A DNA stretch of 64,000 nucleotides from an uncultured Candidatus Saccharibacteria bacterium (GCA_964641225.1 CAZXKC010000005.1:32134-96133), one strand, 5' to 3'. Positions 252-45,137 are shown, counted from the stretch's first letter. The notes: generated by a model not told the origin, from the sequence alone. Numbers and translations: made by a program.

Positions 252-1007
252 CTACGTCAAAATTCGTGGGCCGTCAGCAGTAATCGCAATGGTTTTTTCG
301 AAATGCGCGCCCATGCTGCCATCTTTTGTCCCATAGCTTTCGTCATCGAGCTGGATCATTTCTCCTGTGCCGATTCCGACCATGGGCTCGATAGCAATAA
401 CCATGCCGGCGACAAGCTTTGGGCCCGTCCCCGCCTTGCCTTCGTTCATAACAGACGGCTCTTCGTGTAAATTCTTGCCAACGCCGTGACCGGTTAAGCC
501 TTTGACGACATAGAAACCATTTTTCTTAATAAAGGTGCCAATTGCGTTGCCGATATCGCCTACTGTGTTGCCTACTTTGGCTGCAGCTATACCGAGCTCA
601 AGCGCCTCTTCGGTCACGCTGATCAGTTTATGGATTTCCGGCGTTCCTTTGCCAACTACGACGGTAAAAGCCGAATCAGAGTACCAGCCGTTGATTTTCA
701 CGCCGCCGTCGATTGAGACAACATCTCCGTTTTTAATTTTGTACTTGCTCGGTACGCCGTGGACAACAACATCGTTAACCGATGTGCAGAGTGTGGCCGG
801 ATACGGCTTTGTTGCGCCTTTTGGTTGATACCCTAAAAATGCCGGCTCACCGCCTGCATCAATAATTAATTTTTTTGCCCGTGCATCAAGCTCGAGGAGT
901 GTCATGCCCGGCTTTATTTCTTTTTTCAGTGTGTCTAACACCGAACGCAAAATAGCGCCGGCTCGGGCGATTGTTTCGATTTCTGCTTGAGATTTAATTA
1001 ACGCCAT
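252..1007 (-). CDS. map: Methionine aminopeptidase type I
   Basis: 251-aa ORF with the canonical MetAP-I fold sequence, including GHGVG and the metal-ligand D/H/E residues. The reported end includes the TAG stop. Confidence 0.9.
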   Translation of the reverse strand: MALIKSQAEIETIARAGAILRSVLDTLKKEIKPGMTLLELDARAKKLIIDAGGEPAFLGYQPKGATKPYPATLCTSVNDVVVHGVPSKYKIKNGDVVSIDGGVKINGWYSDSAFTVVVGKGTPEIHKLISVTEEALELGIAAAKVGNTVGDIGNAIGTFIKKNGFYVVKGLTGHGVGKNLHEEPSVMNEGKAGTGPKLVAGMVIAIEPMVGIGTGEMIQLDDESYGTKDGSMGAHFEKTIAITADGPRILT

Positions 1008-1089
1008 TTTTTTTATTTGTCATCCCGAAGCCGAGGGATCTTTTTTCTTAAGGATGAGATGCTTCGGCTTCAGCATGACAGCGGGATCG

Positions 1090-1764
1090 TTATTTCAAAT
1101 GCTTCAAGATTTCAGCAAAAATGACCGGCGGCTTTTGATCGGCATTTATAGTGACAATATTCATTCCTTGTTTTCGCAACTCATCAAGAATTGGGAGCGT
1201 ACGTGTTGTGTATTGTTCGTAACGGGTTTTATACGTTTCAGGATTGTCGTCTTTGCGGACCTTGAGTTCACCCATGCAGATTGGACAATCGGTGACGGGT
1301 GCGTCGCTTAGAATCATCGTTGCGCAGGTATTGCAGGTGCGACGAATTGTGTTGCGACCTGCGGCAATCTCTGGCTTGATATCGAGATAGAACGCGTGGA
1401 CGTTTTCCGGCCCGTATAATTTTTTCAGTGTCGCAACGAGTCCGACGGTAGTTTTATTGCCAAAGGCTTCGTACATCGTGCGCGGTGAGCCTGAATAAAC
1501 GATGCTCATGCCCGCCTTGGCAATTTTCTTCACCTCTTTTTTAAACATCGAAAGAACCCAAGTTGGGCTGTTGAGGATTCCTTTTTCGTTCATCTCGCGC
1601 TCCTTTTTGATACGCGCATTTTCTTGATTTGCCGGATCATACAGAACTTGGCGGATTTGTTTGCCGCTGTCCCAGTGATAAAAGCCTTTGGTCCAGGCAA
1701 GTAAATTTGCCTGCGTGCCCTTGCCGCTACCCGGTGTGCCAAAAATAAAAACTGCTTGTTTCAT
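1090..1764 (-). CDS. adk: Adenylate kinase (long form with Zn-finger LID)
   Basis: N-terminal P-loop GTPGSGKGTQ and a LID region with CNTC...CPIC cysteines; 224 aa. Confidence 0.9.
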   Translation of the reverse strand: MKQAVFIFGTPGSGKGTQANLLAWTKGFYHWDSGKQIRQVLYDPANQENARIKKEREMNEKGILNSPTWVLSMFKKEVKKIAKAGMSIVYSGSPRTMYEAFGNKTTVGLVATLKKLYGPENVHAFYLDIKPEIAAGRNTIRRTCNTCATMILSDAPVTDCPICMGELKVRKDDNPETYKTRYEQYTTRTLPILDELRKQGMNIVTINADQKPPVIFAEILKHLK

Positions 1765-3390: not shown

Positions 3391-3520
3391 GCCCTTTAAT
3401 GTACTATGAGCGCGAATAGCGCACTATATTAAAAAATTGACGGTGTAGTCTGTATTACGATAACGATAGCTCAAGTGTAGCAGACTTTAGAAAAAAGCGC
3501 CGTCTGAATTTCGGCCAGAA

Positions 3521-3966
3521 ATTAGAAAGGGGTCCAGGCAGTGACGCGAGGACCCCTCGGGGGTGCCGCACGCGACTCATCAAGGTTGTGCGATGAGCGG
3601 CGGCGGGGAGAGAAGATTCTGGGTGTGAGGCGCTGTGTTGCGGGCGCAGCGCCTCACGGAGCTAAGTTGCGCGGACCGTCCGCGAACGGAGCTTGTGTGC
3701 AAGGAGGAGCCGCTTGCCTACCCTATGAGAGGAGATCTCGGGAGGTCGGGTGTGCTGCGCACTCCTCCTGCAGGAAACAGAAAGATTCAGGATGTGGGGG
3801 TCTCAGACCGGTCGGACCGCTTTGGGGCACGGCATTGTTGAATTTAGCCCTCGGAGGCCTAGACCAGCCGAGGGTCGGAATTCCAGTGCACTCAGTTTCC
3901 CGCGTGCTGTGCCATCTGCCGTTATACGGAACGATTAGGTCCTTTGTGCGAGACCCCCACGATTTC
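3521..3966. ncRNA. High-GC (~62%) non-coding island with extensive secondary structure; candidate structured RNA of unassigned class
   Basis: No credible ORF; those present are only R/P/G-rich artefacts. Hairpins include GTGAGGCGCTG...CAGCGCCTCAC (11 bp), GGGGTCC...GGACCCC and CCCTCGG...CCGAGGG. The two ends can pair (GGGGGTGCCGCAC / GTGCGAGACCCCC). There are short RNase-P-like strings (GGGGAGAGAAGAUUCUGGG, AACAGAAAG) but no complete P4. Confidence 0.3.
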
Positions 3967-4022
3967 TAAAGATCAGAATATAATTATACGCCTTTTTTAT
4001 AAGGCGTCAAGAAGCGCGATTT

Positions 4023-5159
4023 TTATCGAATTTCCGCGGCAAACTGTTTTTTTGTCTCTTCGATCACTTTATTTTGTAACGGCTCAATTTCTTCAACTTT
4101 GAGGGTTCGATCAGTGCTCCGATAGACGATTCGGTAGGCATAGCTGATTTTGTCCGCTCCGAACTTTTTCTCGTTTTCGTATTTATCAAGCAGTGTCACC
4201 TCTTCGGCCAAATCGCCGACAATGTCGCGGATTAGGTCAAAGTAGTTGTTTGGTACGAATGTCTTTGGTACGACAAACGAGATATCGCGCGTGATCGGCG
4301 GATACTTACTGACTGTTTTAAATTTGTTACCAAGTTTCAGTTGTTTTTTTACGCGTTCGTCAGCCGACCAGAAGAGACGGATGTCGGGCAAATCCATGCT
4401 GATGATTCCAAGTCGCTCGAGACCAAATCCAAAAGCCCAACCATTGTATCCTTCAATACCAAAATTTTTAAGTACTGATTTTTTCGGCATTCCTCCACCC
4501 AAAATTTCTATCCAACGATCCCCGACTTTAACCTCAACTTGCAGTGATGGATCTGTGTATGGAAATGTATCGTCCAAAAAGCGATATTCAACATCTTTGC
4601 CAAATAAATTTTCTACGATTTGCGAAAGGACTTTTTTTAGCTCATCAAGCGGCATAATGCCTTTGCTGTCCGGCTGTAAATACCAGGCACCAAATTGATG
4701 GAAGACATTCATGTGTCGACTGTCGATTTCATCCTTTCGGTATACCTTGCCATAGCAGACAGTGCCAACTGACTCGCCACGCGCAATCCGCTCTTGTATC
4801 TCCGGCTGATTCAAATAGTAATACCACATGACCGTATCATGTGTGCGCAAAATATTTTTTTCATCCACGTAGTAAGTATCAGACTTACTTCGTGCAGGAT
4901 GGTTTGGTGCGAAATCGAACAAGTCAAATGTGATAGAGGTCGGTACAATTTCTGGAATGACAATGTTGTCAAGATTTTTTAAAACATCTGTGGCTCGCGC
5001 CCGAGCAACGATTTCGTAGAGGGGGCTCTCCGGCGTCCGCGACAAATCCGGCATCGCCAAAAAGCGCTTCATGCGCAGGGCTTCGGGGTCGCTGCGACCT
5101 TCCAATACTTTTAACGCCTGTTTCTCTTCCGGTGCGTTTATGATGATTTCTTTGGGCAT
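4023..5159 (-). CDS. pheS: Phenylalanine--tRNA ligase, monomeric mitochondrial-like form (PheS catalytic core fused to C-terminal FDX-ACB anticodon-binding domain)
   Basis: Class II motif 2 (YRKDEIDSRHMNVFHQ) and motif 3 (AFGFGLERL) are present. There is no N-terminal coiled coil. An extra ~100 aa C-terminal has the FDX-ACB signature (DISFVVP...YAYRIVYRSTDRTL). Confidence 0.8.
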   Translation of the reverse strand: MPKEIIINAPEEKQALKVLEGRSDPEALRMKRFLAMPDLSRTPESPLYEIVARARATDVLKNLDNIVIPEIVPTSITFDLFDFAPNHPARSKSDTYYVDEKNILRTHDTVMWYYYLNQPEIQERIARGESVGTVCYGKVYRKDEIDSRHMNVFHQFGAWYLQPDSKGIMPLDELKKVLSQIVENLFGKDVEYRFLDDTFPYTDPSLQVEVKVGDRWIEILGGGMPKKSVLKNFGIEGYNGWAFGFGLERLGIISMDLPDIRLFWSADERVKKQLKLGNKFKTVSKYPPITRDISFVVPKTFVPNNYFDLIRDIVGDLAEEVTLLDKYENEKKFGADKISYAYRIVYRSTDRTLKVEEIEPLQNKVIEETKKQFAAEIR

Positions 5160-5169
5160 AAACTATATC

Positions 5170-5610
5170 TTAGTACCAATCAACTAGTTCAGTAAAGCGG
5201 ACATAAAAACCAAACGGATCAACTACTCTAAAATCTTTTTTATTCCAACGTTTAAGCGTAAGCGGTTGAGCGATTTGCTCGGGCAATAATTTTTCTTTTA
5301 TTGAATTCCAAAATTCTTCAACATCAGAAACGGGGATAGTTATTTCTACCTCATATCCTCTACGAGTACCGACTGGGAAATCTTTAAAGAATGAGTGTTG
5401 CGAAACTTTTTCTTTATCTCCGTAAAAGTTCAGATGCGTTTCGCCCAGGGCGTCAGCTCTTTTTAGAATCATATAACCAAGGTCGCTATTCCCGCCACTC
5501 TGTGGGTCATAGCGTAATTGCGTAAAACCAAATAATCCATAGAAATCACGGGCTTTTTGAAAGTCCGGAACATGAAGTTCCAGAACTAAATTATTGATAA
5601 CTTTATCCAT
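5170..5610 (-). CDS. VOC/glyoxalase-bleomycin resistance family protein
   Basis: 146-aa protein with paired beta-alpha-beta-beta-beta modules typical of the vicinal oxygen chelate fold. The assignment is from similarity only. Confidence 0.6.
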   Translation of the reverse strand: MDKVINNLVLELHVPDFQKARDFYGLFGFTQLRYDPQSGGNSDLGYMILKRADALGETHLNFYGDKEKVSQHSFFKDFPVGTRRGYEVEITIPVSDVEEFWNSIKEKLLPEQIAQPLTLKRWNKKDFRVVDPFGFYVRFTELVDWY

Positions 5611-5683
5611 GGTACCAGTAGTAAGAATCGAACTTACGTCTCGGCCTTATGAAAGCCTCGCTCTACCATTGAGCTATACTGGC
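5610..5683 (-). tRNA. tRNA-Met (anticodon CAT; could instead be the lysidine Ile2 species)
   Basis: Reverse complement folds as a cloverleaf: acceptor GCCAGTA/TACTGGT, D-arm GCTC-AATGGTA-GAGC, anticodon loop TTCATAA, T-arm GTAAG-TTCGATT-CTTAC, 3' CCA encoded. Confidence 0.85.
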
Positions 5684-5805
5684 ATCGCTCGGTTCTTTGT
5701 TTTCTGACAGGACTCACCCTTCGGGATTGCCATAAAACAAAGATCCTCTCTCCTACAATTACAAAAGATATACTACCGATTTTTGAGACTTATTGCAATG
5801 TTTGC

Positions 5806-6300
5806 TTGTGCGGGTGTAGACTGACTATGAACCGGCTGAAGTGGTGGCCGGAAGGAGGTGATCATGGCCTGGTTCGGAGGAGAGGGTTCTGGGGGTGGCT
5901 CCGCCACCTACAGACCTCGGAGGATGTTCGATGCCGGGTTCTCTGGTGCTCGCGGGATCAAGCCAGATCCTCTTCCTGCTGGGACCGGCAAGTCGCTGGT
6001 CGGAAGGGCGCACGTGTCCTACGCCTGCTCTGAAAGGCCCTGGGAGGGGCCGGCCGAGTGGGCTCGTCCCACGACGGTCGGCGACCCGCCCGACTGGCAC
6101 AGTCCGTAGGCAGGTCACTGCAGCGAGGGATGCCGGGCGCGCAACGCGCGCCCGGCACTTCGATTTATCCCCTTTGACGATTCTAGTATTTTGCTTTATA
6201 ATTACAACTTACCGGTCAACTGACAGCGGAGTAGGGAAACGGTATCCCGCCACGCTCATAACGTGGAGATAGGACGTTCGACTCGTCTCTCCGCAACCCT
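5806..6300. ncRNA. High-GC non-coding island with tRNA-like 3' end; candidate structured RNA (intron-containing tRNA or other) of unresolved identity
   Basis: No credible ORF. There is a perfect 11-bp hairpin GCCGGGCGCGC-aac-GCGCGCCCGGC. The 3' end has a T-arm-like GGACG-TTCGACT-CGTCT followed by CTCCGCA-A-CCC, which can pair with 5' TGCGGG at 5809-5814. Confidence 0.25.
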
Positions 6301-6436: not shown

Positions 6437-8977
6437 TTAGCCCCCTTTTTTCCCGAGTAATTTAGCGTATTTTTGGAACTGGTCGCCTTTTTCATTAAAG
6501 TCTTTCCAGAGGCTGTAGCTCGGCGAAGCCGTTGAAAGGAGGCAGATGCTCCCCTGCGGCGTATGTTTATACGCGAACGCAATTGCATCTTTCATTTTTT
6601 CTGTCCGGAAAATGTTTAAGTCGGTTGCTTCTACAAATAATCGATTGCCGGTATCCGGGAACAGTACAATATTTTTGATGCCAGCGACTCTAATTTTTGC
6701 CTCTAGTGTTTTAAAGTCATAGCCGCGATCTTCGCCGCCAAGGAAAATAGTTCCTACGTTTTTCAAAGAACGTAGCGCCATAATTGTTGATTCTGGAGTG
6801 GTCGAAATTGCGTCGTCGTAAAACGTGATGCCTTTAAATGTTCCGACTTTTTCAAGTCTGTGCGGGAGCGGTTTAAAGTTTAGTATTGCTTCTCGAATGA
6901 TTTCATCGGGCACAGAAAGCATTTTGGCGACGGTGACTGCAGCGCGAACATTATTGTAATTATGGACGCCGATTAGTGGCAGCTCGTCTTGGCTGACGGG
7001 AAGCTCGGTCGTAAATGGCACTGTTTTTGACCGCGCCTCTTTCGCCCACTCTACGAGGCGGTGATCTTCAGGGTTAAATACAAATGAGTCGTCGCGACGC
7101 TGGAATTTAATAATGTTCTTTTTAGCCAGATAATACGGCTCCTCTCCTTGATGATACGGCAGATGTTCCGGGAATAAATTTGAAATTACGGCGATGTTTG
7201 GTGAATAGCGGCTGTCGTCAAGCTGGTGGCTCGAAAGTTCTAATACAAAAATTTCCCGTGGATCAACCGAGCGCTTGAGTGCGCCAAGCATTGGTACGCC
7301 GATATTGCCAAGCAGGCTTACTTTTTTGCCGGCTTTTTTGAGAATTGCGTAAATGAGTGAGGAGGTTGTGCTTTTGCCTTTTGTGCCCGTGACACCAATG
7401 GTCAAATTGGAGATTTGTGAGAAAAAAAGATTGGTCGCCGTTGTGTACGGAATACTAACAAAGCGTTTTGGAATACCCGGCGTTTTGATGGCGATATCAA
7501 AGTCGGCCTGCATCTGCAGATAGTTTTTACTACGATTCTGGTCGGCAATTCCAAGTTTGAGTTTTGGGAATTTTTTCCGCATAAATTCCTGCGTCACTTT
7601 TCCTTCTTTGCCGTAGCCAAGAATAAGTGCGGTTTTCATACCCGAAAATCTAAACGGAGCAGGTATCAGAGGTGAATCTTGTGTTTTCATCACTCGAGCA
7701 ATCGTCTCTGGAGTTACGGCTAGCTGGTGTTCAAGCGTTTTAAAGACAATAGTTTTTCCATAAATTTTTCTACTCAAATGCAGTGCAGTCTGTACCTCTT
7801 CAAAGGTTCCCACGCAGTCGAATGGTTTGAGGTTACCCTGCCCTATTAAATCTTTAAAGAGCGGCACGAGTGTTTCATCTTCAAACAAATTTTTTCCAAA
7901 AATTGAGATGAGTTTTTTCTTTGGCAGCCATGGCGCTAGAATCGCAAAGACAAACGCACATTTTGCGCAGACGCCGCACCATTTAGTAGTAGACGGTAGT
8001 GAGTAGTCAGTAGACAGCGGGTTGATTTTTGCGACTGCATTGCAACTACTAAAGGCTGAGAAGTATTTTGGATAGGTGCTGAATAATTTTGCGATCCGCA
8101 ACTCGTAAAATGGTCTCAGAATCGAGAAGTAGGTTATGTTTGGCGTCACAAAATTGCGGATGTATTCCTGAAACAGCGTTTCAAATTCTTGCGACTTACT
8201 CCACTGATGATTAATAATTTCCCCTTTGTATTCTAAATTACCAAAGTTGCTGCTAAATTCGTTGGCAACAATTGTGTAGCGATAATCGTAGAGCGCCGCA
8301 GCAAATACGCCGATCCATGCTAACACTGCAGAAATTGGTATGTGTCCGTTAAAGCTATCGGGGTGTTTTTCGAAAATTTGTGGATCGAGCTCCCGGGAAA
8401 TGATCAGGCTTGGCAATTTGGTCGCCTTCATTACGCTCTGGGCTTGCAGGTTTGGTTTTTGTGTCTCGATTAAGATCGCCGTCGCATCTATTTTTTGCTC
8501 TTTAAGGAGCTCGACGGCAACCAGCGAGTCTTTGCCGCCACCGATGCCGATCAGCGAGCGATTACTGCGTTTAAAATCAACGGATTCCGGGCGATGTTCT
8601 GCCGAGCCTGGGAATAATGCTAGTACGCCCGGCTCAAGGTTGTTGCGATATAAAAATTCGCCCAGACCTTTTCTGTACACGGTGTTCCAAAATATGGCCT
8701 GCTCGGGCGAAATTGGTTGATTAAGTTTGATCTCCGGCGGACAGTAGAGTTTGTAATAGCTGATGCCGATAATCAGGTGTAGTCCCTGTAAAATATTTTC
8801 AAGCAATTGCGGCGGAATATCGGCAGAGATTTTTTGGTTGTATGGAAGCGTCAGTTTTTCGGTGAATATCAGCGGCTGGCGATTTGCAAAATGGATCGTG
8901 TAGTTAAATGAGGCCAGGCGCTTTTCCGGTTCAAATGAATAAAACGTGAATTCAAAAATTGTTGGTTTAAGCGTCAT
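6437..8977 (-). CDS. murD: Bifunctional protein: N-terminal QueC-like PP-loop ATP pyrophosphatase domain with CGxCxxC zinc ribbon, fused to C-terminal MurD-type UDP-N-acetylmuramoyl-L-alanine--glutamate ligase
   Basis: N-terminal half has an SGGxDS-like PP-loop (GIGGGKDS) and WCGVCAKC. C-terminal half has the MurD Rossmann N-domain, Mur ligase P-loop GVTGTKGKSTT and a DDAISTTPES-type C-domain; 846 aa. Confidence 0.8.
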   Translation of the reverse strand: MTLKPTIFEFTFYSFEPEKRLASFNYTIHFANRQPLIFTEKLTLPYNQKISADIPPQLLENILQGLHLIIGISYYKLYCPPEIKLNQPISPEQAIFWNTVYRKGLGEFLYRNNLEPGVLALFPGSAEHRPESVDFKRSNRSLIGIGGGKDSLVAVELLKEQKIDATAILIETQKPNLQAQSVMKATKLPSLIISRELDPQIFEKHPDSFNGHIPISAVLAWIGVFAAALYDYRYTIVANEFSSNFGNLEYKGEIINHQWSKSQEFETLFQEYIRNFVTPNITYFSILRPFYELRIAKLFSTYPKYFSAFSSCNAVAKINPLSTDYSLPSTTKWCGVCAKCAFVFAILAPWLPKKKLISIFGKNLFEDETLVPLFKDLIGQGNLKPFDCVGTFEEVQTALHLSRKIYGKTIVFKTLEHQLAVTPETIARVMKTQDSPLIPAPFRFSGMKTALILGYGKEGKVTQEFMRKKFPKLKLGIADQNRSKNYLQMQADFDIAIKTPGIPKRFVSIPYTTATNLFFSQISNLTIGVTGTKGKSTTSSLIYAILKKAGKKVSLLGNIGVPMLGALKRSVDPREIFVLELSSHQLDDSRYSPNIAVISNLFPEHLPYHQGEEPYYLAKKNIIKFQRRDDSFVFNPEDHRLVEWAKEARSKTVPFTTELPVSQDELPLIGVHNYNNVRAAVTVAKMLSVPDEIIREAILNFKPLPHRLEKVGTFKGITFYDDAISTTPESTIMALRSLKNVGTIFLGGEDRGYDFKTLEAKIRVAGIKNIVLFPDTGNRLFVEATDLNIFRTEKMKDAIAFAYKHTPQGSICLLSTASPSYSLWKDFNEKGDQFQKYAKLLGKKGG

Positions 8978-13249: not shown

Positions 13250-13440
13250 ATTTATTTCACATTTTTTGGGGAAGCAGGTGGAACTCCTGCACAGTACCGC
13301 TACGGTTATAGTCCGAGCGCCAGAATGTGATTAGTCTCACTGTCTTAATCCTCGAGTAAGGATGCCAGGCGGATTCGGTGCTCTCCCCAGAACCCGAAAC
13401 CGACCACCCCTCTATCTCGAGATGGGTGTTTTTATTTTTT
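13250..13440 (+). promoter_or_regulatory. Structured 5' leader (~190 nt) ending in an intrinsic terminator immediately upstream of the 13451 ORF; candidate riboswitch/attenuator of unassigned class
   Basis: An extended -10-like TGgTACACT lies upstream. The leader has GGGGAAGCAGG...ACGGUUAUAGUCCGAGCGCC...CCCGAAACCGAC motifs and ends in hairpin CACCCCTCTATCTCGAGATGGGTG (13405-13428) plus TTTTTATTTTTT. Confidence 0.35.
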
Positions 13441-13450
13441 ACTTTTAATC

Positions 13451-15718
13451 ATGCCGGAGTTACGACAACCACGATTTGAAGATGAGGGAGCTGCAACAAC
13501 TACTTCAGAGCGGCCTTTTAGTGGTGAAACACTCGAAGAAGAATTGGAGCGCTTAGAGCAGGAGAAAGCGCAAAGAGAATTAGAGGATCGTTTAGAGCAA
13601 GAACGACTTGAAGCAGAAGAACGTGCTGCTGAGGTTGCCGAAGAAGAGGAACGGATTCAGGCGGAAGATATCTCTCTTATCGAAGCGCTTGGTTCGGATA
13701 AGGTTGAAGTTCGATTTGTTGATCCGGCTGATAAGGCAACGTATCCGCAAGCCAGCTCAGATGGACCAAGCCACCAGGATAAGTCTGGGGTTCCCGTAGC
13801 AAGTCTGCCGCAACGTTTTATAGATGGTAAAAGTCAGAATCCAGACGGTACGTTTGTGGTTGATGAGCTCATGCGCTTAGGTAATGCATCGCCTGAGGGT
13901 CTTGCTCGCGCGCAAAAGCATGACAATGATCTCAATACTCTGCAGTATCATATTTCGGAACCCTTCAAGTCATTTAATGGTGATGGAAAAATGTGGAGGA
14001 CGATCACTCGCGTTAATGCTAACGGAGAAGAGGTTGCTCGAAATTATGAGATTGCGCTTCCTAAAAAGGAAGCAGAGGAAGATGATAATGGAGACCTGCT
14101 TCCGGGTGGTACCAGTGAAGGATTAGGAAATGCGCTCGATTCAGAGGACGATGAGGTGGTCGAAGATGGTTTGCTGGATCCTAATTCGGACGGGCTCGAA
14201 TCCTTGTGGGCCGCCCAAATTTCAGAGCTCGAAAAAAGTAAGGCCTTGAAAGATGCAGAGACTCAGCGAGTCACTGCGCTGAATGTTTCGCCTACTTTAA
14301 GTGCTACAGAGCCTAATGTTTCTGTCATAGCTGCGCAGATGCCGGTTTCTGAAATTTTTGCCACTGAGCCAGGCGTTTCGGCGCAGCCTGAGGCTATAAA
14401 GACACCATCGTTATTTACTGAATCCTTCGCCAGCGCACCATCTGCAGTCAATACGACCGAAAATTTTGCTCTAGAAACAGATTCATTCACTCTTGAGGTC
14501 GCAAACCTGTCTACGCCGGAAGATTCTGTTATTTCATCTCTGGAGCATTTTGCCAATACAGAACCAGTTGTTAGTCATGAGGCTGCGCCTGGGGCTATTA
14601 AGGTATCATCTCACGAGCTACCAGTAGCTCGTGGAGCAGTTGATCTTGCAGTTGAGGTATCTGCGACAACGAGTGAAATAATTTCAGAGCCGGTAGCTCT
14701 TGTTCCAGAAATTTTAAGTGAAGAGAGTGTCGCGGAAAATTCAATAGCAACAGATGCAGCTTCAGAGATTAGCAATGAGTTTACGATTAATTTTTCGTCA
14801 GGTGATTTATTTAAGCCTGAAATCGTCCTGGCTGAAACGATGACGAACGGCGCGCAGACGCATACAGAGACATTTGCGCAGCCCGTCTTTGAAACACCGA
14901 CGGTTGAATTTGATGTAGCTCCTGAGGAGGCTATTACAGAATCTGCACCTGTTACAGAGCTTCACGAGGACGCAATGCCCTCCATTGAATCAGCCGCAGA
15001 GGTTGCTTCTATTCTATTTCCTAAAGAAAAATCAGTGCCTGTTGAAGTCGTAGCTGTCGCGCCGGAAATTGCCCCCACTCAAGTTGTAGCTATCCCGGCC
15101 GCACCGAGAGAGGCAATTACGCTGACGTTTAAAAAAGATATCGCGCAACCGACTGTTGCGCGCATAGAAGCAACGAAACCTAAGTCCGTTGAGGTTTTGA
15201 AAGATGAAGTGCCAGCGGCTAAGGCAAAAGAAGTGGTGCCCCCCCCAGCAGAGAAGGCAGAACCAATTCGGCTTGTTCGGAATGAAGCAGCCCCTATTCC
15301 AGTTGCCCGTAAGGCTGAACAGAAACATGTTGATCAATCGCCGAATGTACCTTCGGTAGAGAAATCAGCAGGTAGAATTTTGAAATTTGAAGATGCTGTT
15401 GCTAATAAAGAGCGCCGCTCCCCTTCGCTAACACCTGAAATATTAAAAACACCCGTTCAGAAAATTTCGAATCCGCTTGTACGATCAAAAGTCCCAGAGG
15501 CTGTGCAGCGTCGACAGGAGCGTGAGGAGCTCCCGACTTTTGCTTCTTCAGTTGTTCGGGCTCGAGAGGTTGCGCGAGTTACCCAAGAGGTGCACAATTT
15601 CAAGCCGCGTAGTACGGCTGCTCTGTCTGACATAATCTCACAAGAAACTCGAGAGCGGCGTATTCTAGACATAGAAGACCTACCGGAGGTTGGAATCCGG
15701 ATGCTTCGTCGAGCCTAA
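13451..15718 (+). CDS. Large acidic low-complexity protein (755 aa), function unknown
   Basis: Long uninterrupted ORF in an AT-rich genome, E/A/S/T/V/P-rich with an N-terminal E/R coiled-coil-like region. No signal peptide or TM segment. Confidence 0.55.
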   Translation: MPELRQPRFEDEGAATTTSERPFSGETLEEELERLEQEKAQRELEDRLEQERLEAEERAAEVAEEEERIQAEDISLIEALGSDKVEVRFVDPADKATYPQASSDGPSHQDKSGVPVASLPQRFIDGKSQNPDGTFVVDELMRLGNASPEGLARAQKHDNDLNTLQYHISEPFKSFNGDGKMWRTITRVNANGEEVARNYEIALPKKEAEEDDNGDLLPGGTSEGLGNALDSEDDEVVEDGLLDPNSDGLESLWAAQISELEKSKALKDAETQRVTALNVSPTLSATEPNVSVIAAQMPVSEIFATEPGVSAQPEAIKTPSLFTESFASAPSAVNTTENFALETDSFTLEVANLSTPEDSVISSLEHFANTEPVVSHEAAPGAIKVSSHELPVARGAVDLAVEVSATTSEIISEPVALVPEILSEESVAENSIATDAASEISNEFTINFSSGDLFKPEIVLAETMTNGAQTHTETFAQPVFETPTVEFDVAPEEAITESAPVTELHEDAMPSIESAAEVASILFPKEKSVPVEVVAVAPEIAPTQVVAIPAAPREAITLTFKKDIAQPTVARIEATKPKSVEVLKDEVPAAKAKEVVPPPAEKAEPIRLVRNEAAPIPVARKAEQKHVDQSPNVPSVEKSAGRILKFEDAVANKERRSPSLTPEILKTPVQKISNPLVRSKVPEAVQRRQEREELPTFASSVVRAREVARVTQEVHNFKPRSTAALSDIISQETRERRILDIEDLPEVGIRMLRRA

Positions 15719-44447: not shown

Positions 44448-45137
44448 ATGCCGATTGGACCGGACATCAACAAAGACCCCGACCCGCGTGACGCAGGGGC
44501 CGAGGTCATGGCGTACTGCATGTGGCCGGACAAGATCCGGAGCATGCGCCTACAGCCCGACGTCATCGTCGTCTACACGGGCGACGGGCGTCGGCTCGCC
44601 ACCGCCGCCATCCGCCGCGCTCGGGAGTACCCGAACATCCCCGTCTTCATCGTCGGGCCCGACAGCCTGATGGCGAGCGAGCTGGACGGCCAGATGAACG
44701 CCGAACACCTCAAGGCCGAGATGGTGGGGCATGGAATCGCGGCCGGCCGGATCATCACCGATTCGAGCCCGCAGAGCATCTACACCCACGGCCAGGCCAA
44801 CCAGGCGGCCGTGCGCTTCCGGGAGGAAACCTGGGCCACCATGCTGCTGATCACCAGTCAGCACCATGCGTACCGGGCGTTCATGATCACCCTGGGCGTC
44901 TTCAGCCGGGAAGGCCTGGCCGACCGGGTCGTCATCGTGCCAGACTCCGTCTACGAATTCGGTTTCGGCGAGCACCCGGCGGAATGGAGCGAGGAGTGGC
45001 GACGCCACACTCCCTGGGTCTGTCTCGTTCGGGACGGGATTCCAAAGGTCAGAAGCGGGCAGGAGAAGCACCCGCAGAACTTCGCGCAGAGCGACGTCGC
45101 ACAGCAGTACGTCAGACGCATCACCGCCAAGCTGTAA
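44448..45137 (+). CDS. High-GC (~65%) DUF218/YdcF-like family protein; foreign cassette
   Basis: 229 aa. The conserved DUF218 core is (V)IVVYTGDG...IPVFIVGPDS. It is followed by terminator AAGAGGAGCGG...CCGCTCCTCTT + TTTTTT (45148-45212). Confidence 0.55.
   Translation: MPIGPDINKDPDPRDAGAEVMAYCMWPDKIRSMRLQPDVIVVYTGDGRRLATAAIRRAREYPNIPVFIVGPDSLMASELDGQMNAEHLKAEMVGHGIAAGRIITDSSPQSIYTHGQANQAAVRFREETWATMLLITSQHHAYRAFMITLGVFSREGLADRVVIVPDSVYEFGFGEHPAEWSEEWRRHTPWVCLVRDGIPKVRSGQEKHPQNFAQSDVAQQYVRRITAKL

What the first reader, a model, noticed from the sequence alone, without database searches (positions are those of the whole stretch)
4023..5159. Mitochondrial-type monomeric phenylalanyl-tRNA synthetase in a bacterium
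Bacterial PheRS is normally an (alpha-beta)2 heterotetramer, with the anticodon-binding FDX-ACB (B8) domain on PheT. Here the PheS catalytic core lacks the N-terminal coiled coil and carries the FDX-ACB domain at its own C-terminus, exactly as in mitochondrial FARS2. No pheT is adjacent, though pheS-pheT are usually in one operon. This implies a streamlined single-chain PheRS.
Basis: partly seen in the sequence, partly recalled or inferred. Interest (0 to 1): 0.6.

Follow-up and report, generated by a model that had tools for sequence, protein, structure and literature searches.

The report
Single-chain phenylalanyl-tRNA synthetase in Patescibacteria
This ultra-small (CPR/Patescibacteria) bacterium, like at least 582 related species, encodes a one-piece phenylalanyl-tRNA synthetase built like the mitochondrial enzyme, and it probably replaces the four-subunit, proofreading enzyme that bacteria are assumed always to have.

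Summary
ORF 4023-5159(-) encodes 378 aa: a PheS-type class II core (PF01409, E 4e-47) without the PheS N-terminal coiled coil, then a C-terminal FDX-ACB anticodon-binding domain (PF03147, E 6e-23). The closest solved structure is human mitochondrial PheRS. No pheS or pheT lies in the 64-kb window.

The gene belongs to a tightly conserved Patescibacteria clade (63-87% identity, at least 582 species-representative genomes). This clade is not a FARS2 transfer. It falls in a separate bacterial wing of the fused family and scores below the curated cut-offs for pheS_mito, SrmL and pheS.

Catalytic residues, Phe-pocket residues and all four G34-contacting residues are conserved. Three clade-specific changes line the amino-acid pocket (D108, W112, G157).

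Sole-PheRS status is indirect. In a public table of 178 CPR genomes, 25 have FDX-ACB but no PheT B5 domain, and 24 of those also lack the PheS N-domain (p = 8e-8). A canonical-pheST relative lacks the fused gene. Neighbours are housekeeping genes.

No whole-genome pheT scan was possible. No paper describing this was found. Verdict: a real new bacterial variant of the monomeric PheRS, of moderately high interest.

The parts
4023..5159 (-). Complete gene for the single-chain PheRS (378 aa plus stop codon)
   Evidence: ORF listing, Pfam, PDB sequence search, AF2 model and fold search.
4956..5159 (-). Short N-terminal helical region (aa 1-68) that stands in place of the PheS coiled coil
   Evidence: No PF02912 hit. 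The model shows helices at residues 10-21, 25-35 and 46-55. R29, P37-L39, R41 and P46-L47 are invariant in 40 relatives.
4341..4955 (-). Class IIc catalytic domain (aa 69-273). It carries motif 2 R141 (4737-4739), motif 3 R249 (4413-4415) and Phe-pocket residues F199, Y201, T202 and A242.
   Evidence: PF01409, 161 bits. These residues are invariant in 40 relatives, apart from one of 40 at A242. Codon coordinates were checked.
4824..4838 (-). Clade-specific pocket residues D108 (4836-4838) and W112 (4824-4826). They correspond to human mtPheRS Thr120 and Gln124.
   Evidence: D108 and W112 are invariant in 40/40 relatives. Other family members have T/M at 108 and Q/E at 112. Gln124 H-bonds the meta-OH of m-Tyr in the human enzyme (PMC3275996).
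4689..4691 (-). G157, replacing the motif-2-strand Glu/Asp (human Glu159, E. coli 'FHQMEG')
   Evidence: Gly in 40/40 of the tight clade. In a 103-member comparison set 98 have Glu/Asp, and E. coli PheS has Glu.
4311..4340 (-). Inter-domain linker (aa 274-283)
   Evidence: It lies between the two Pfam envelopes and is a coil in the model.
4026..4310 (-). FDX-ACB anticodon-binding domain (aa 284-378) with the G34-recognition tetrad: D325 (4185-4187), Y327 (4179-4181), S339 (4143-4145) and R378 (4026-4028)
   Evidence: PF03147, 81.5 bits. The tetrad corresponds to human Asp364/Phe366/Ser375/Arg414 (PMC7540514). D, S and R are invariant and position 327 is Y/F in 40 relatives.
5170..5610 (-). Co-directional upstream ORF (146 aa, weak glyoxalase-like), 10 nt from the PheRS start. 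It is a probable operon partner and is not conserved next to the gene in relatives.
   Evidence: Pfam Glyoxalase at 20.3 bits, just below the 20.6-bit cut-off. Sequence read.
5610..5683 (-). tRNA-Met (CAT) directly upstream on the same strand. Its CCA end abuts the ATG of the upstream ORF.
   Evidence: ARAGORN and Rfam; sequence.

Best explanation
The gene encodes the organism's housekeeping phenylalanyl-tRNA synthetase as one polypeptide.

How it most likely works:
- The class IIc catalytic domain activates Phe with ATP and transfers it to tRNA-Phe.
- The C-terminal FDX-ACB domain reads G34 of the GAA anticodon, as the B8 domain of PheT does in ordinary bacteria and as the same domain does in mitochondrial FARS2.
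- There is no beta subunit, so there is no B3/B4 editing site.
- The enzyme most likely works as a monomer that swings from a closed to an open form on tRNA binding, as the human mitochondrial enzyme does.

In this Patescibacteria clade it has replaced the (alpha-beta)2 enzyme.

The pocket is remodelled. The carboxylate normally on the motif-2 strand (Glu/Asp) is gone (G157) and an Asp appears at 108. A Trp (W112) replaces the Gln that, with that Glu, H-bonds the hydroxyl of meta-tyrosine in the human enzyme. I infer that this makes the pocket less welcoming to hydroxylated analogues and so partly compensates for lost proofreading.

Shown: the architecture, the residue conservation, the clade distribution and the predicted fold. 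Inferred: sole-PheRS status, monomeric state, lack of editing, and the role of the pocket changes.
For: Architecture and fold.

Catalytic competence:
- Motif 2 Arg (R141), motif 3 Arg (R249), H149, Q155, F199 and T202 (E. coli T251) are invariant in 40 relatives; A242 (E. coli A294) is Ala in 39 of 40.
- The four residues that contact G34 in the human enzyme are kept. D325, S339 and R378 are invariant and position 327 is Y/F (residue roles from PMC7540514).

Constraint:
- Identity is 63-76% across 81 related loci.
- The protein is more conserved than GatA in 7/7 loci and than LigA in 4/4 loci that share those genes with the window.

Housekeeping neighbourhood in relatives: gyrB (46 loci), the CCA-adding enzyme (18), a second class II aaRS (17), plus tsf and rpsB.

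Sole-copy evidence:
- There is exactly one PheS-like hit per locus and no PheT in 1.15 Mb of 80 loci plus the window.
- In the anvi'o training table of 178 public CPR genomes, 25 have FDX-ACB without the PheT-specific B5 domain.
- Of those 25, 24 also lack the PheS N-terminal domain, against 31 of 85 genomes that have both B5 and FDX-ACB (Fisher p = 7.7e-8).
- That class has its own marker profile, so it is a lineage and not random incompleteness.
- Conversely, the Paceibacteria genome PMX_810 has adjacent canonical pheS-pheT and only one PF01409 and one PF03147 domain in its whole annotation, so it has no fused gene.
Against: No complete genome of the clade could be scanned for pheT; the tools give only +/-10 kb around a gene.

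The census uses anonymised draft genomes and HMMs that miss divergent CPR domains. B5 appears without FDX-ACB in 31 genomes.

The protein scores below every curated NCBIfam cut-off, and its top hit is the 'mystery ligase' SrmL. NCBI annotates the whole clade as 'hypothetical protein'.

Close relatives in Oligoflexia and in a Bacteroidota-like contig sit among accessory genes and are probably paralogues.

Loss of the otherwise near-universal motif-2 Glu/Asp could mean altered chemistry.

No tRNA-Phe gene is in the window. There is no biochemistry.
Confidence: 0.75

Rival explanations
1. It is an accessory PheS-related paralogue, SrmL-like or otherwise non-canonical. It would do something other than bulk tRNA-Phe charging, while a canonical pheS-pheT pair sits elsewhere in the genome.
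For: The top NCBIfam hit is NF051887 'PheS-related mystery ligase SrmL' at 224 bits. Clade-1 relatives in Oligoflexia (P0124) and in a Bacteroidota-like contig (P0126, which even lacks FDX-ACB) lie among accessory genes. Some Paceibacteria do have canonical pheST. The motif-2 Glu/Asp is lost.
Against: The SrmL score is below its cut-off of 300. A true SrmL (P0242, 375.8 bits) has lost the G34 tetrad (Ile, Asn, no C-terminal Arg) and has His for F199, whereas this clade keeps all of them. The domain census shows a CPR class with FDX-ACB but neither B5 nor the PheS N-domain. Conservation exceeds that of GatA and LigA. The genome with canonical pheST lacks the fused gene.
Confidence: 0.13
2. It is the only PheRS but is not a self-sufficient monomer. 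It would need a trans-acting partner, such as the free-standing PheT-B2-like tRNA-binding protein, or it would act as a dimer.
For: In 2 of 80 related loci a 128-169-aa stop-to-stop reading frame consisting of a tRNA_bind domain lies directly upstream of the gene (L086 4935-5318, L067 9484-9990). Its best NCBIfam match is the B2 region of PheT. This is a conserved family of 566 proteins in Patescibacteria. Class II synthetases are normally dimers.
Against: Adjacency occurs in only 2 of 80 loci and not in this window. Human mtPheRS works alone as a monomer (PMC3275996). Free-standing tRNA_bind proteins are common in bacteria. The model matches the monomeric closed form.
Confidence: 0.12
3. It is a recent horizontal acquisition of a eukaryotic or giant-virus FARS2 gene, and so a true member of the mitochondrial family.
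For: The best PDB and fold matches are human FARS2. Large DNA viruses carry FARS2-type genes: 39 IMG/VR contigs including giant-virus MAGs. Some Paceibacteria live with eukaryotes (my own knowledge).
Against: In NJ trees the clade groups with other bacterial proteins (code-25 Patescibacteria, Oligoflexia). It is separated from the eukaryote/virus wing with 83/100 (full length) and 91/100 (catalytic domain, five outgroups) bootstrap support. It scores below the pheS_mito cut-off, whereas every tested member of the other wing passes it. It lacks the FARS2 insertion.
Confidence: 0.04
4. The remodelled pocket (D108, W112, G157, Y201) has changed the amino-acid specificity, so that the enzyme charges tRNA-Phe, or another G34 tRNA, with something other than Phe.
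For: Three pocket-lining positions differ from nearly all other family members and are fixed in 40/40 relatives.
Against: The residues that set ring size (E. coli T251 and A294 equivalents) and the aromatic pocket residue F199 are kept. The D108/G157 pair looks like a relocation of the same carboxylate, not a loss. A proteome needs Phe-tRNA-Phe and no other candidate enzyme was seen.
Confidence: 0.05

Closest known systems
Mitochondrial monomeric PheRS (FARS2 / yeast MSF1; PheRS-M; NCBIfam TIGR00469 pheS_mito; PDB 3CMQ, 3TUP)
   Same: Both are single chains with no N-terminal coiled coil, a class IIc catalytic core, a linker and an FDX-ACB domain, with no beta subunit or editing domain. Identity to the human enzyme is 31-32% and TM 0.76-0.79 over both domains. 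The G34 tetrad and the Phe-pocket core are shared. The fusion has a common origin: all fused proteins are monophyletic against five canonical PheS in 100/100 replicates.
   Different: This one is bacterial and has no targeting peptide. It is 378 aa against 415 aa for the mature human chain and lacks the roughly 30-residue insertion between motifs 2 and 3. It scores 217.5 bits against a cut-off of 258.35. It lies in a separate clade. It has Gly for Glu159, Trp for Gln124, Asp for Thr120 and FPY for FPF.
SrmL, 'PheS-related mystery ligase' (NCBIfam NF051887)
   Same: It is the highest-scoring NCBIfam model for this protein (224 bits), with the same two-domain layout. A true member (P0242) branches near the bacterial wing.
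   Different: The score is below the cut-off of 300. True SrmL has lost the aromatic, Ser and C-terminal Arg residues of the G34 tetrad, the HPAR motif and F199, and this protein keeps them all. SrmL's function is unknown.
Canonical bacterial PheRS (PheS TIGR00468 plus PheT TIGR00472), (alpha-beta)2
   Same: It has the same catalytic domain family (about 30% identity to E. coli PheS, TM 0.8 on the core). Its anticodon-binding domain is homologous to B8 of PheT (73 bits to the last 108 positions of pheT_bact).
   Different: Here there is no coiled coil, none of B1-B7 and no B3/B4 editing site, and the B8 domain is fused to the alpha chain. The pheS model scores 138 bits against a cut-off of 237.
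FARS2-type PheRS genes of giant viruses and huge phages
   Same: They have the same two-domain, roughly 340-360-aa compact layout and are encoded outside eukaryotic nuclei.
   Different: The members tested with NCBIfam pass the pheS_mito cut-off and fall in the eukaryote/virus wing, not the Patescibacteria wing. An exception is the 635-kb phage protein, which pairs with SrmL next to the bacterial wing.

Membership tests
Monomeric mitochondrial-type PheRS (PheRS-M / FARS2, TIGR00469) | Single chain: class IIc catalytic core without the PheS N-terminal coiled coil | tested here: met
   PF01409 covers residues 69-273, there is no PF02912 hit, and the pheS model is matched only from position 96.
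Monomeric mitochondrial-type PheRS (PheRS-M / FARS2, TIGR00469) | C-terminal FDX-ACB (B8-like) anticodon-binding domain on the same chain, with G34-contacting residues | tested here: met
   PF03147 covers residues 284-378 at full length. D325, Y327, S339 and R378 correspond to human D364, F366, S375 and R414.
Monomeric mitochondrial-type PheRS (PheRS-M / FARS2, TIGR00469) | Score at or above the curated family cut-off (258.35 bits) | tested here: not met
   The score is 217.5 bits. The 55%-identical relative P0121 passes at 264.3 bits.
Monomeric mitochondrial-type PheRS (PheRS-M / FARS2, TIGR00469) | Phylogenetic position inside the FARS2 clade | tested here: not met
   It falls in a separate bacterial clade, with 83/100 and 91/100 NJ bootstrap support. 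It shares one origin of the fusion with FARS2 (100/100). The root inside the fused family is unresolved.
Monomeric mitochondrial-type PheRS (PheRS-M / FARS2, TIGR00469) | No beta subunit or editing domain in the same genetic system | tested here: inconclusive
   None was found in the window or in 1.15 Mb of 80 related loci. The census of 178 CPR genomes supports a class with only the fused gene. No whole genome was scanned.
Monomeric mitochondrial-type PheRS (PheRS-M / FARS2, TIGR00469) | Monomeric quaternary structure and Phe-tRNA-Phe synthesis | not testable with these tools
   The only evidence is a single-chain model that resembles the closed monomer 3CMQ.
SrmL (NF051887) | Score at or above the cut-off of 300 bits | tested here: not met
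   The score is 224.4 bits. A true member, P0242, scores 375.8 bits.
SrmL (NF051887) | Family-specific sequence signature (as seen in member P0242) | tested here: not met
   P0242 has H for F199, I for the stacking aromatic, N for Ser and no C-terminal Arg. This protein keeps the PheRS residues at all of these positions.
Bacterial PheS alpha subunit (TIGR00468) | N-terminal coiled-coil domain, score at or above 237.45 bits, and partnership with PheT | tested here: not met
   The score is 138.4 bits, there is no N-terminal domain, and no pheT lies within 64 kb.

The most novel reading that the evidence does not exclude
A large radiation of free-living or episymbiotic bacteria has discarded the heterotetrameric, proofreading PheRS. 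The radiation comprises the Kaiser-/Giovannoni-/Nomura-/Harrison-/Doudnabacteria group, a related lineage and code-25 Patescibacteria. These organisms would run translation on a monomeric, editing-free enzyme.

Their pocket would have been re-engineered to exclude tyrosine and meta-tyrosine without editing, through the carboxylate moved from 157 to 108 and Trp in place of the m-Tyr-binding Gln.

All fused PheRS share one origin and the bacterial wing is not nested in eukaryotes. The monomeric architecture of mitochondrial FARS2 would therefore have arisen in bacteria, or their viruses, and been imported by eukaryotes. It would not have been invented by domain loss in the early mitochondrion.
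Probability: 0.25. Interest if true: 0.8.

Novelty: new variant of a known kind. Interest (0 to 1): 0.6.

Why it matters
PheRS is the textbook case of an obligate (alpha-beta)2 synthetase in bacteria. [quoted passage not shown]

A bacterial lineage of hundreds of species that lives on the monomer would have several consequences:
- It would show that the beta subunit and its Tyr/m-Tyr editing are dispensable in a cellular, non-organellar translation system.
- It would give a compact natural scaffold (378 aa) with an altered pocket for studying editing-free specificity.
- It would reopen the origin of FARS2.
- It would expose an annotation blind spot. NCBI names the clade 'hypothetical protein'. 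JGI calls it PheS alpha and calls a B2-only protein PheT beta, so KEGG-style reconstructions would look normal.
- pheS and pheT HMMs are, to my knowledge, used as phylogenomic and completeness markers. If so, this clade will systematically appear to lack them.

Tried and rejected
1. Direct search for pheT in a complete genome of the clade. This was not possible, because the tools return at most +/-10 kb around a named protein. I also could not obtain a Patescibacteria PheT seed. The B2-like ORF used as a seed returned only about 140-aa stand-alone proteins. The phage and plasmid collections gave only Proteobacteria and Firmicutes PheS/PheT.

2. Supplementary gene tables. Two papers gave nothing and the Vampirococcus supplements hold no PheRS entries. 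Only PMX_810, a canonical genome, was usable.

3. Literature. 'PheRS' with 'Patescibacteria' returned 0 papers. 'Candidate phyla radiation' with 'phenylalanyl-tRNA synthetase' returned 4 papers; the two I read were irrelevant and the other two were judged from their titles only. 'SrmL' returned none, and 'PheRS-M' returned no paper that mentions bacteria.

4. The idea that the GC-rich segment just downstream of the gene is a linked RNA element. I rejected this as a linkage, because a GC island follows the gene in only 4 of 81 loci.

5. The tight-clade patterns find nothing in IMG/VR.

6. An rplT/rpmI/ihfA neighbourhood as a route to pheST. These genes are not in the window.

7. An RNase P P4 motif in the window. 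There was no match.

8. Rooting inside the fused family. This is unresolved: the split 'clade 1 plus outgroup' appears in only 32/100 replicates. The trees are neighbour-joining only, because no maximum-likelihood program was available.

Full report
**Observation.** The ORF at 4023..5159 on the minus strand is real and intact: ATG start, 378 aa.
- Pfam finds the PheRS class II core (PF01409) at residues 69-273 (161 bits, E 4e-47). It also finds a full-length FDX-ACB domain (PF03147) at residues 284-378 (81.5 bits, E 6e-23).
- There is no PheS N-terminal domain. The pheS model is matched only from position 96 of 324.
- The best PDB sequences are human mitochondrial PheRS (E about 1e-56), against about 1e-28 for bacterial PheS.
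- An AlphaFold2 model built on 40 relatives is confident (pLDDT 92.3, pTM 0.87). It superposes over both domains on the closed human enzyme (3CMQ/5MGH, TM 0.76-0.79, 31-32% identity). The fit to the open tRNA-bound form 3TUP is poorer (TM 0.59).
- E. coli PheS and PheT, searched against every six-frame ORF of the window, hit only this gene. None of the large ORFs is a PheT.

**Whose gene is it.**
- The 120 nearest proteins are all 349-398 aa with the same two domains, at 68-100% identity. Where named, they come from Patescibacteria: Paceibacterota, Kaiser-, Giovannoni-, Nomura- and Liptonbacteria, and Minisyncoccia.
- NCBI calls them 'hypothetical protein' and JGI calls them 'PheRS alpha chain'.
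These include complete chromosomes of 808-829 kb. Submitter names add Harrison-, Vogel-, Zambryski-, Colwell- and Doudnabacteria.
- The exhaustive search of 50%-identity representatives shows how compact the clade is. Apart from fragmentary entries, only one outside representative exceeds 50% identity (P0121, 55%). Only 200 representatives of the whole fused family reach E < 1e-30.

**Relation to known families.**
- The protein scores below all curated NCBIfam cut-offs: SrmL 224 against 300, pheS_mito 217.5 against 258.35, and pheS 138 against 237.
- Neighbour-joining trees give two wings.
- One wing holds eukaryotic FARS2 plus compact 340-380-aa proteins. All tested members pass the pheS_mito cut-off. 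Those whose contexts I examined lie on large virus-like contigs. Relatives occur on 39 IMG/VR contigs, including giant-virus MAGs and contigs of 200-540 kb.
- The other wing (83/100 on the full length; 91/100 on the catalytic domain) holds the remaining bacterial proteins.
- Its Patescibacteria members are the tight clade (100/100) and P0121 (99/100 and 96/100 with the tight clade), which shares PheRS-cca synteny with the clade. A pair from code-25 Patescibacteria also belongs here. Their contig L009 has in-frame TGA at conserved Gly positions.
- It also holds an Oligoflexia protein and a Bacteroidota-like protein without FDX-ACB. Both of these sit among accessory genes.
- With five canonical PheS as outgroups, all fused proteins are monophyletic (100/100). 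The fusion therefore arose once. The root inside the fused family is unresolved.
- A true SrmL (P0242, 375.8 bits) branches near the bacterial wing, paired with a protein from the 635-kb phage LR745206.1.
- The gene is thus neither a recent FARS2 import nor an SrmL. It is a distinct bacterial subfamily of the same architecture.

**Is it a working PheRS?**
- Across 40 clade members these residues are invariant: the motif 2 and motif 3 arginines (R141, R249), H149, Q155, the aromatic pocket residue F199, and the equivalent of E. coli T251 (T202). The equivalent of E. coli A294 (A242) is Ala in 39 of 40.
- The four residues that hold G34 of tRNA-Phe in the human enzyme are Asp364, Phe366, Ser375 and Arg414. 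Asp364Gly abolishes activity (PMC7540514). They correspond to D325, Y327 (Tyr as in Thermus, per that paper), S339 and the C-terminal R378. D, S and R are invariant, and position 327 is Y/F.
- SrmL, by contrast, has Ile, Asn and no Arg at the last three of these positions.
- Three changes are fixed in the tight clade. G157 replaces the Glu/Asp of 'FHQxE/DG' (98 of 103 in the comparison set, and E. coli). D108 replaces Thr. W112 replaces the Gln of 'TSxxQ'; W112 is shared by most of the bacterial wing.
- In human mtPheRS the equivalent Gln124 and Glu159 are the two residues that H-bond the meta-hydroxyl of m-Tyr (PMC3275996).
- I read D108/G157 as a relocation of the pocket carboxylate. I read W112 as removal of an H-bond partner for hydroxylated analogues. 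That would be a plausible compensation for the missing editing site. This is inference only.

**Is it the only PheRS?** Direct proof was out of reach, but five indirect lines agree.
1. The anvi'o CPR training table (supplement of PMC8672522) lists domain presence for public CPR genomes. In the first 178 rows (tallied), 25 genomes have FDX-ACB but no B5, a domain found only in PheT.
   - Of those 25, 24 also lack the PheS N-terminal domain, against 31 of 85 genomes that have both B5 and FDX-ACB (Fisher p = 7.7e-8).
   - B5 and FDX-ACB lie on one protein in canonical PheT, so incompleteness cannot separate them.
   - The class also has its own profile in part 2 of the table: enolase 19% against 77%, PNPase 50% against 12%, and RbfA 88% against 51%.
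2. The Paceibacteria genome PMX_810 has adjacent canonical pheT-pheS. It has just one PF03147 and one PF01409 domain in its whole annotation, so the two systems look mutually exclusive.
3. In 1.15 Mb around the gene in 80 species there is one PheS-like hit per locus and no PheT.
4. Neighbours in relatives are housekeeping genes: gyrB, cca, tsf, rpsB and another aaRS. In the window, adk and map lie nearby.
5. The protein is more conserved than GatA (7/7 loci) and LigA (4/4 loci) between the same genomes.

I put the sole, housekeeping PheRS reading at about 0.75.

**Prior knowledge.** Reviews describe the monomer as mitochondrial and unique (PMC3275996). The AARS Online and NAR family definitions list PheRS-M without mentioning bacteria. 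A CPR paper notes only that many CPR PheT lack the B2 domain (PMC5370408). No paper in the library links PheRS with Patescibacteria. Databases hold the sequences, but they are unnamed or misnamed.

**Limits.**
- The trees are neighbour-joining only.
- The census genomes are anonymised drafts.
- No tRNA-Phe gene was examined and there is no biochemistry.
- Submitter taxon names are unreliable; for example, many MAGs are labelled 'uncultured Candidatus Saccharibacteria'.

Noticed in passing
window 3492-4010 (minus strand): This looks like an independent transcription unit just downstream of the PheRS stop. It has a near-consensus sigma-70 promoter (TTGACG-16-TATAAT, 11/12) at 4010-3983, then about 480 nt at 58-68% GC in a 45% GC genome, ending in GGCGCUUUUUU. 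The fold z-score is -6.13 with dinucleotide shuffles. It has no Rfam family even at E <= 1, and its 142-aa ORF has no Pfam hit. It is a candidate unknown structured RNA. The position is not conserved in relatives (4 of 81 loci).
   Followed up: partly
window 5790-6160, between tRNA-Met 5610-5683(-) and tRNA-Met 6226-6295(+): This is a second GC-rich segment (57-78% GC, about 370 nt). It ends in a 12-bp GC hairpin at 6131-6157 and has no Rfam or Pfam match. Its fold z-score is about -2.5 to -2.8 (mononucleotide shuffles). An 11/12 promoter at 6174-6202 precedes the downstream tRNA-Met.
   Followed up: partly
window 13257-13330 (+) and 13451-15718 (+): An AdoCbl-II riboswitch (56 bits, above the gathering score) lies directly upstream of a 755-aa ORF. 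That ORF has no hit at all in Pfam, NCBIfam or PDB sequences. It is an orphan, probably B12-regulated protein.
   Followed up: partly
window 6437-8977 (-): This 846-aa protein is a fusion. Its N-terminal half is a MurL-like UDP-MurNAc-L-Ala-L-Glu epimerase (NF041275, 315 bits, below its cut-off of 700). Its C-terminal half is MurD (TIGR01087, 239 bits, above cut-off).
   Followed up: partly
L067 9484-9990 and L086 4935-5318 (related genomes); proteins P0288-P0407: A free-standing tRNA_bind protein lies directly upstream of the single-chain PheRS in 2 of 80 related loci. The two reading frames are 128-169 aa stop-to-stop. The domain's best NCBIfam match is the B2 domain of PheT (108 bits). It belongs to a conserved Patescibacteria family of mostly 134-145-aa proteins (566 homologues). 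JGI labels that family 'PheRS beta chain', which could make these genomes look as if they have pheT.
   Followed up: partly
L098-L136 (IMG/VR), L008, L091, L093 (LR745206.1): Compact FARS2-type single-chain PheRS genes (about 340-360 aa) occur on 39 IMG/VR viral contigs. These include giant-virus MAGs and contigs of 200-540 kb. Others lie on a 340-kb contig with phage-like genes and on a published 635-kb phage genome.
   Followed up: partly
L009 8001-9371: A 456-aa homologue lies on a 32% GC contig with 13 in-frame TGA codons, several at conserved Gly positions (genetic code 25, Gracilibacteria/Absconditabacteria type). It sits next to an F-type ATP synthase operon. The single-chain PheRS therefore also occurs in recoded Patescibacteria.
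   Followed up: partly
window 44448-45137 (+): A DUF218-domain gene has about 65% GC in a roughly 45% GC genome, and two overlapping long ORFs lie in other frames. It is possibly a horizontally acquired gene. A further GC-rich stretch follows from about 45300.
   Followed up: no
window 252-1764 (-): Methionine aminopeptidase (map) and an adenylate kinase-like gene (adk) lie about 2.3 kb from the PheRS gene. This pair often lies at the tail of the ribosomal-protein spc operon (my own knowledge). It fits a housekeeping neighbourhood.
   Followed up: no
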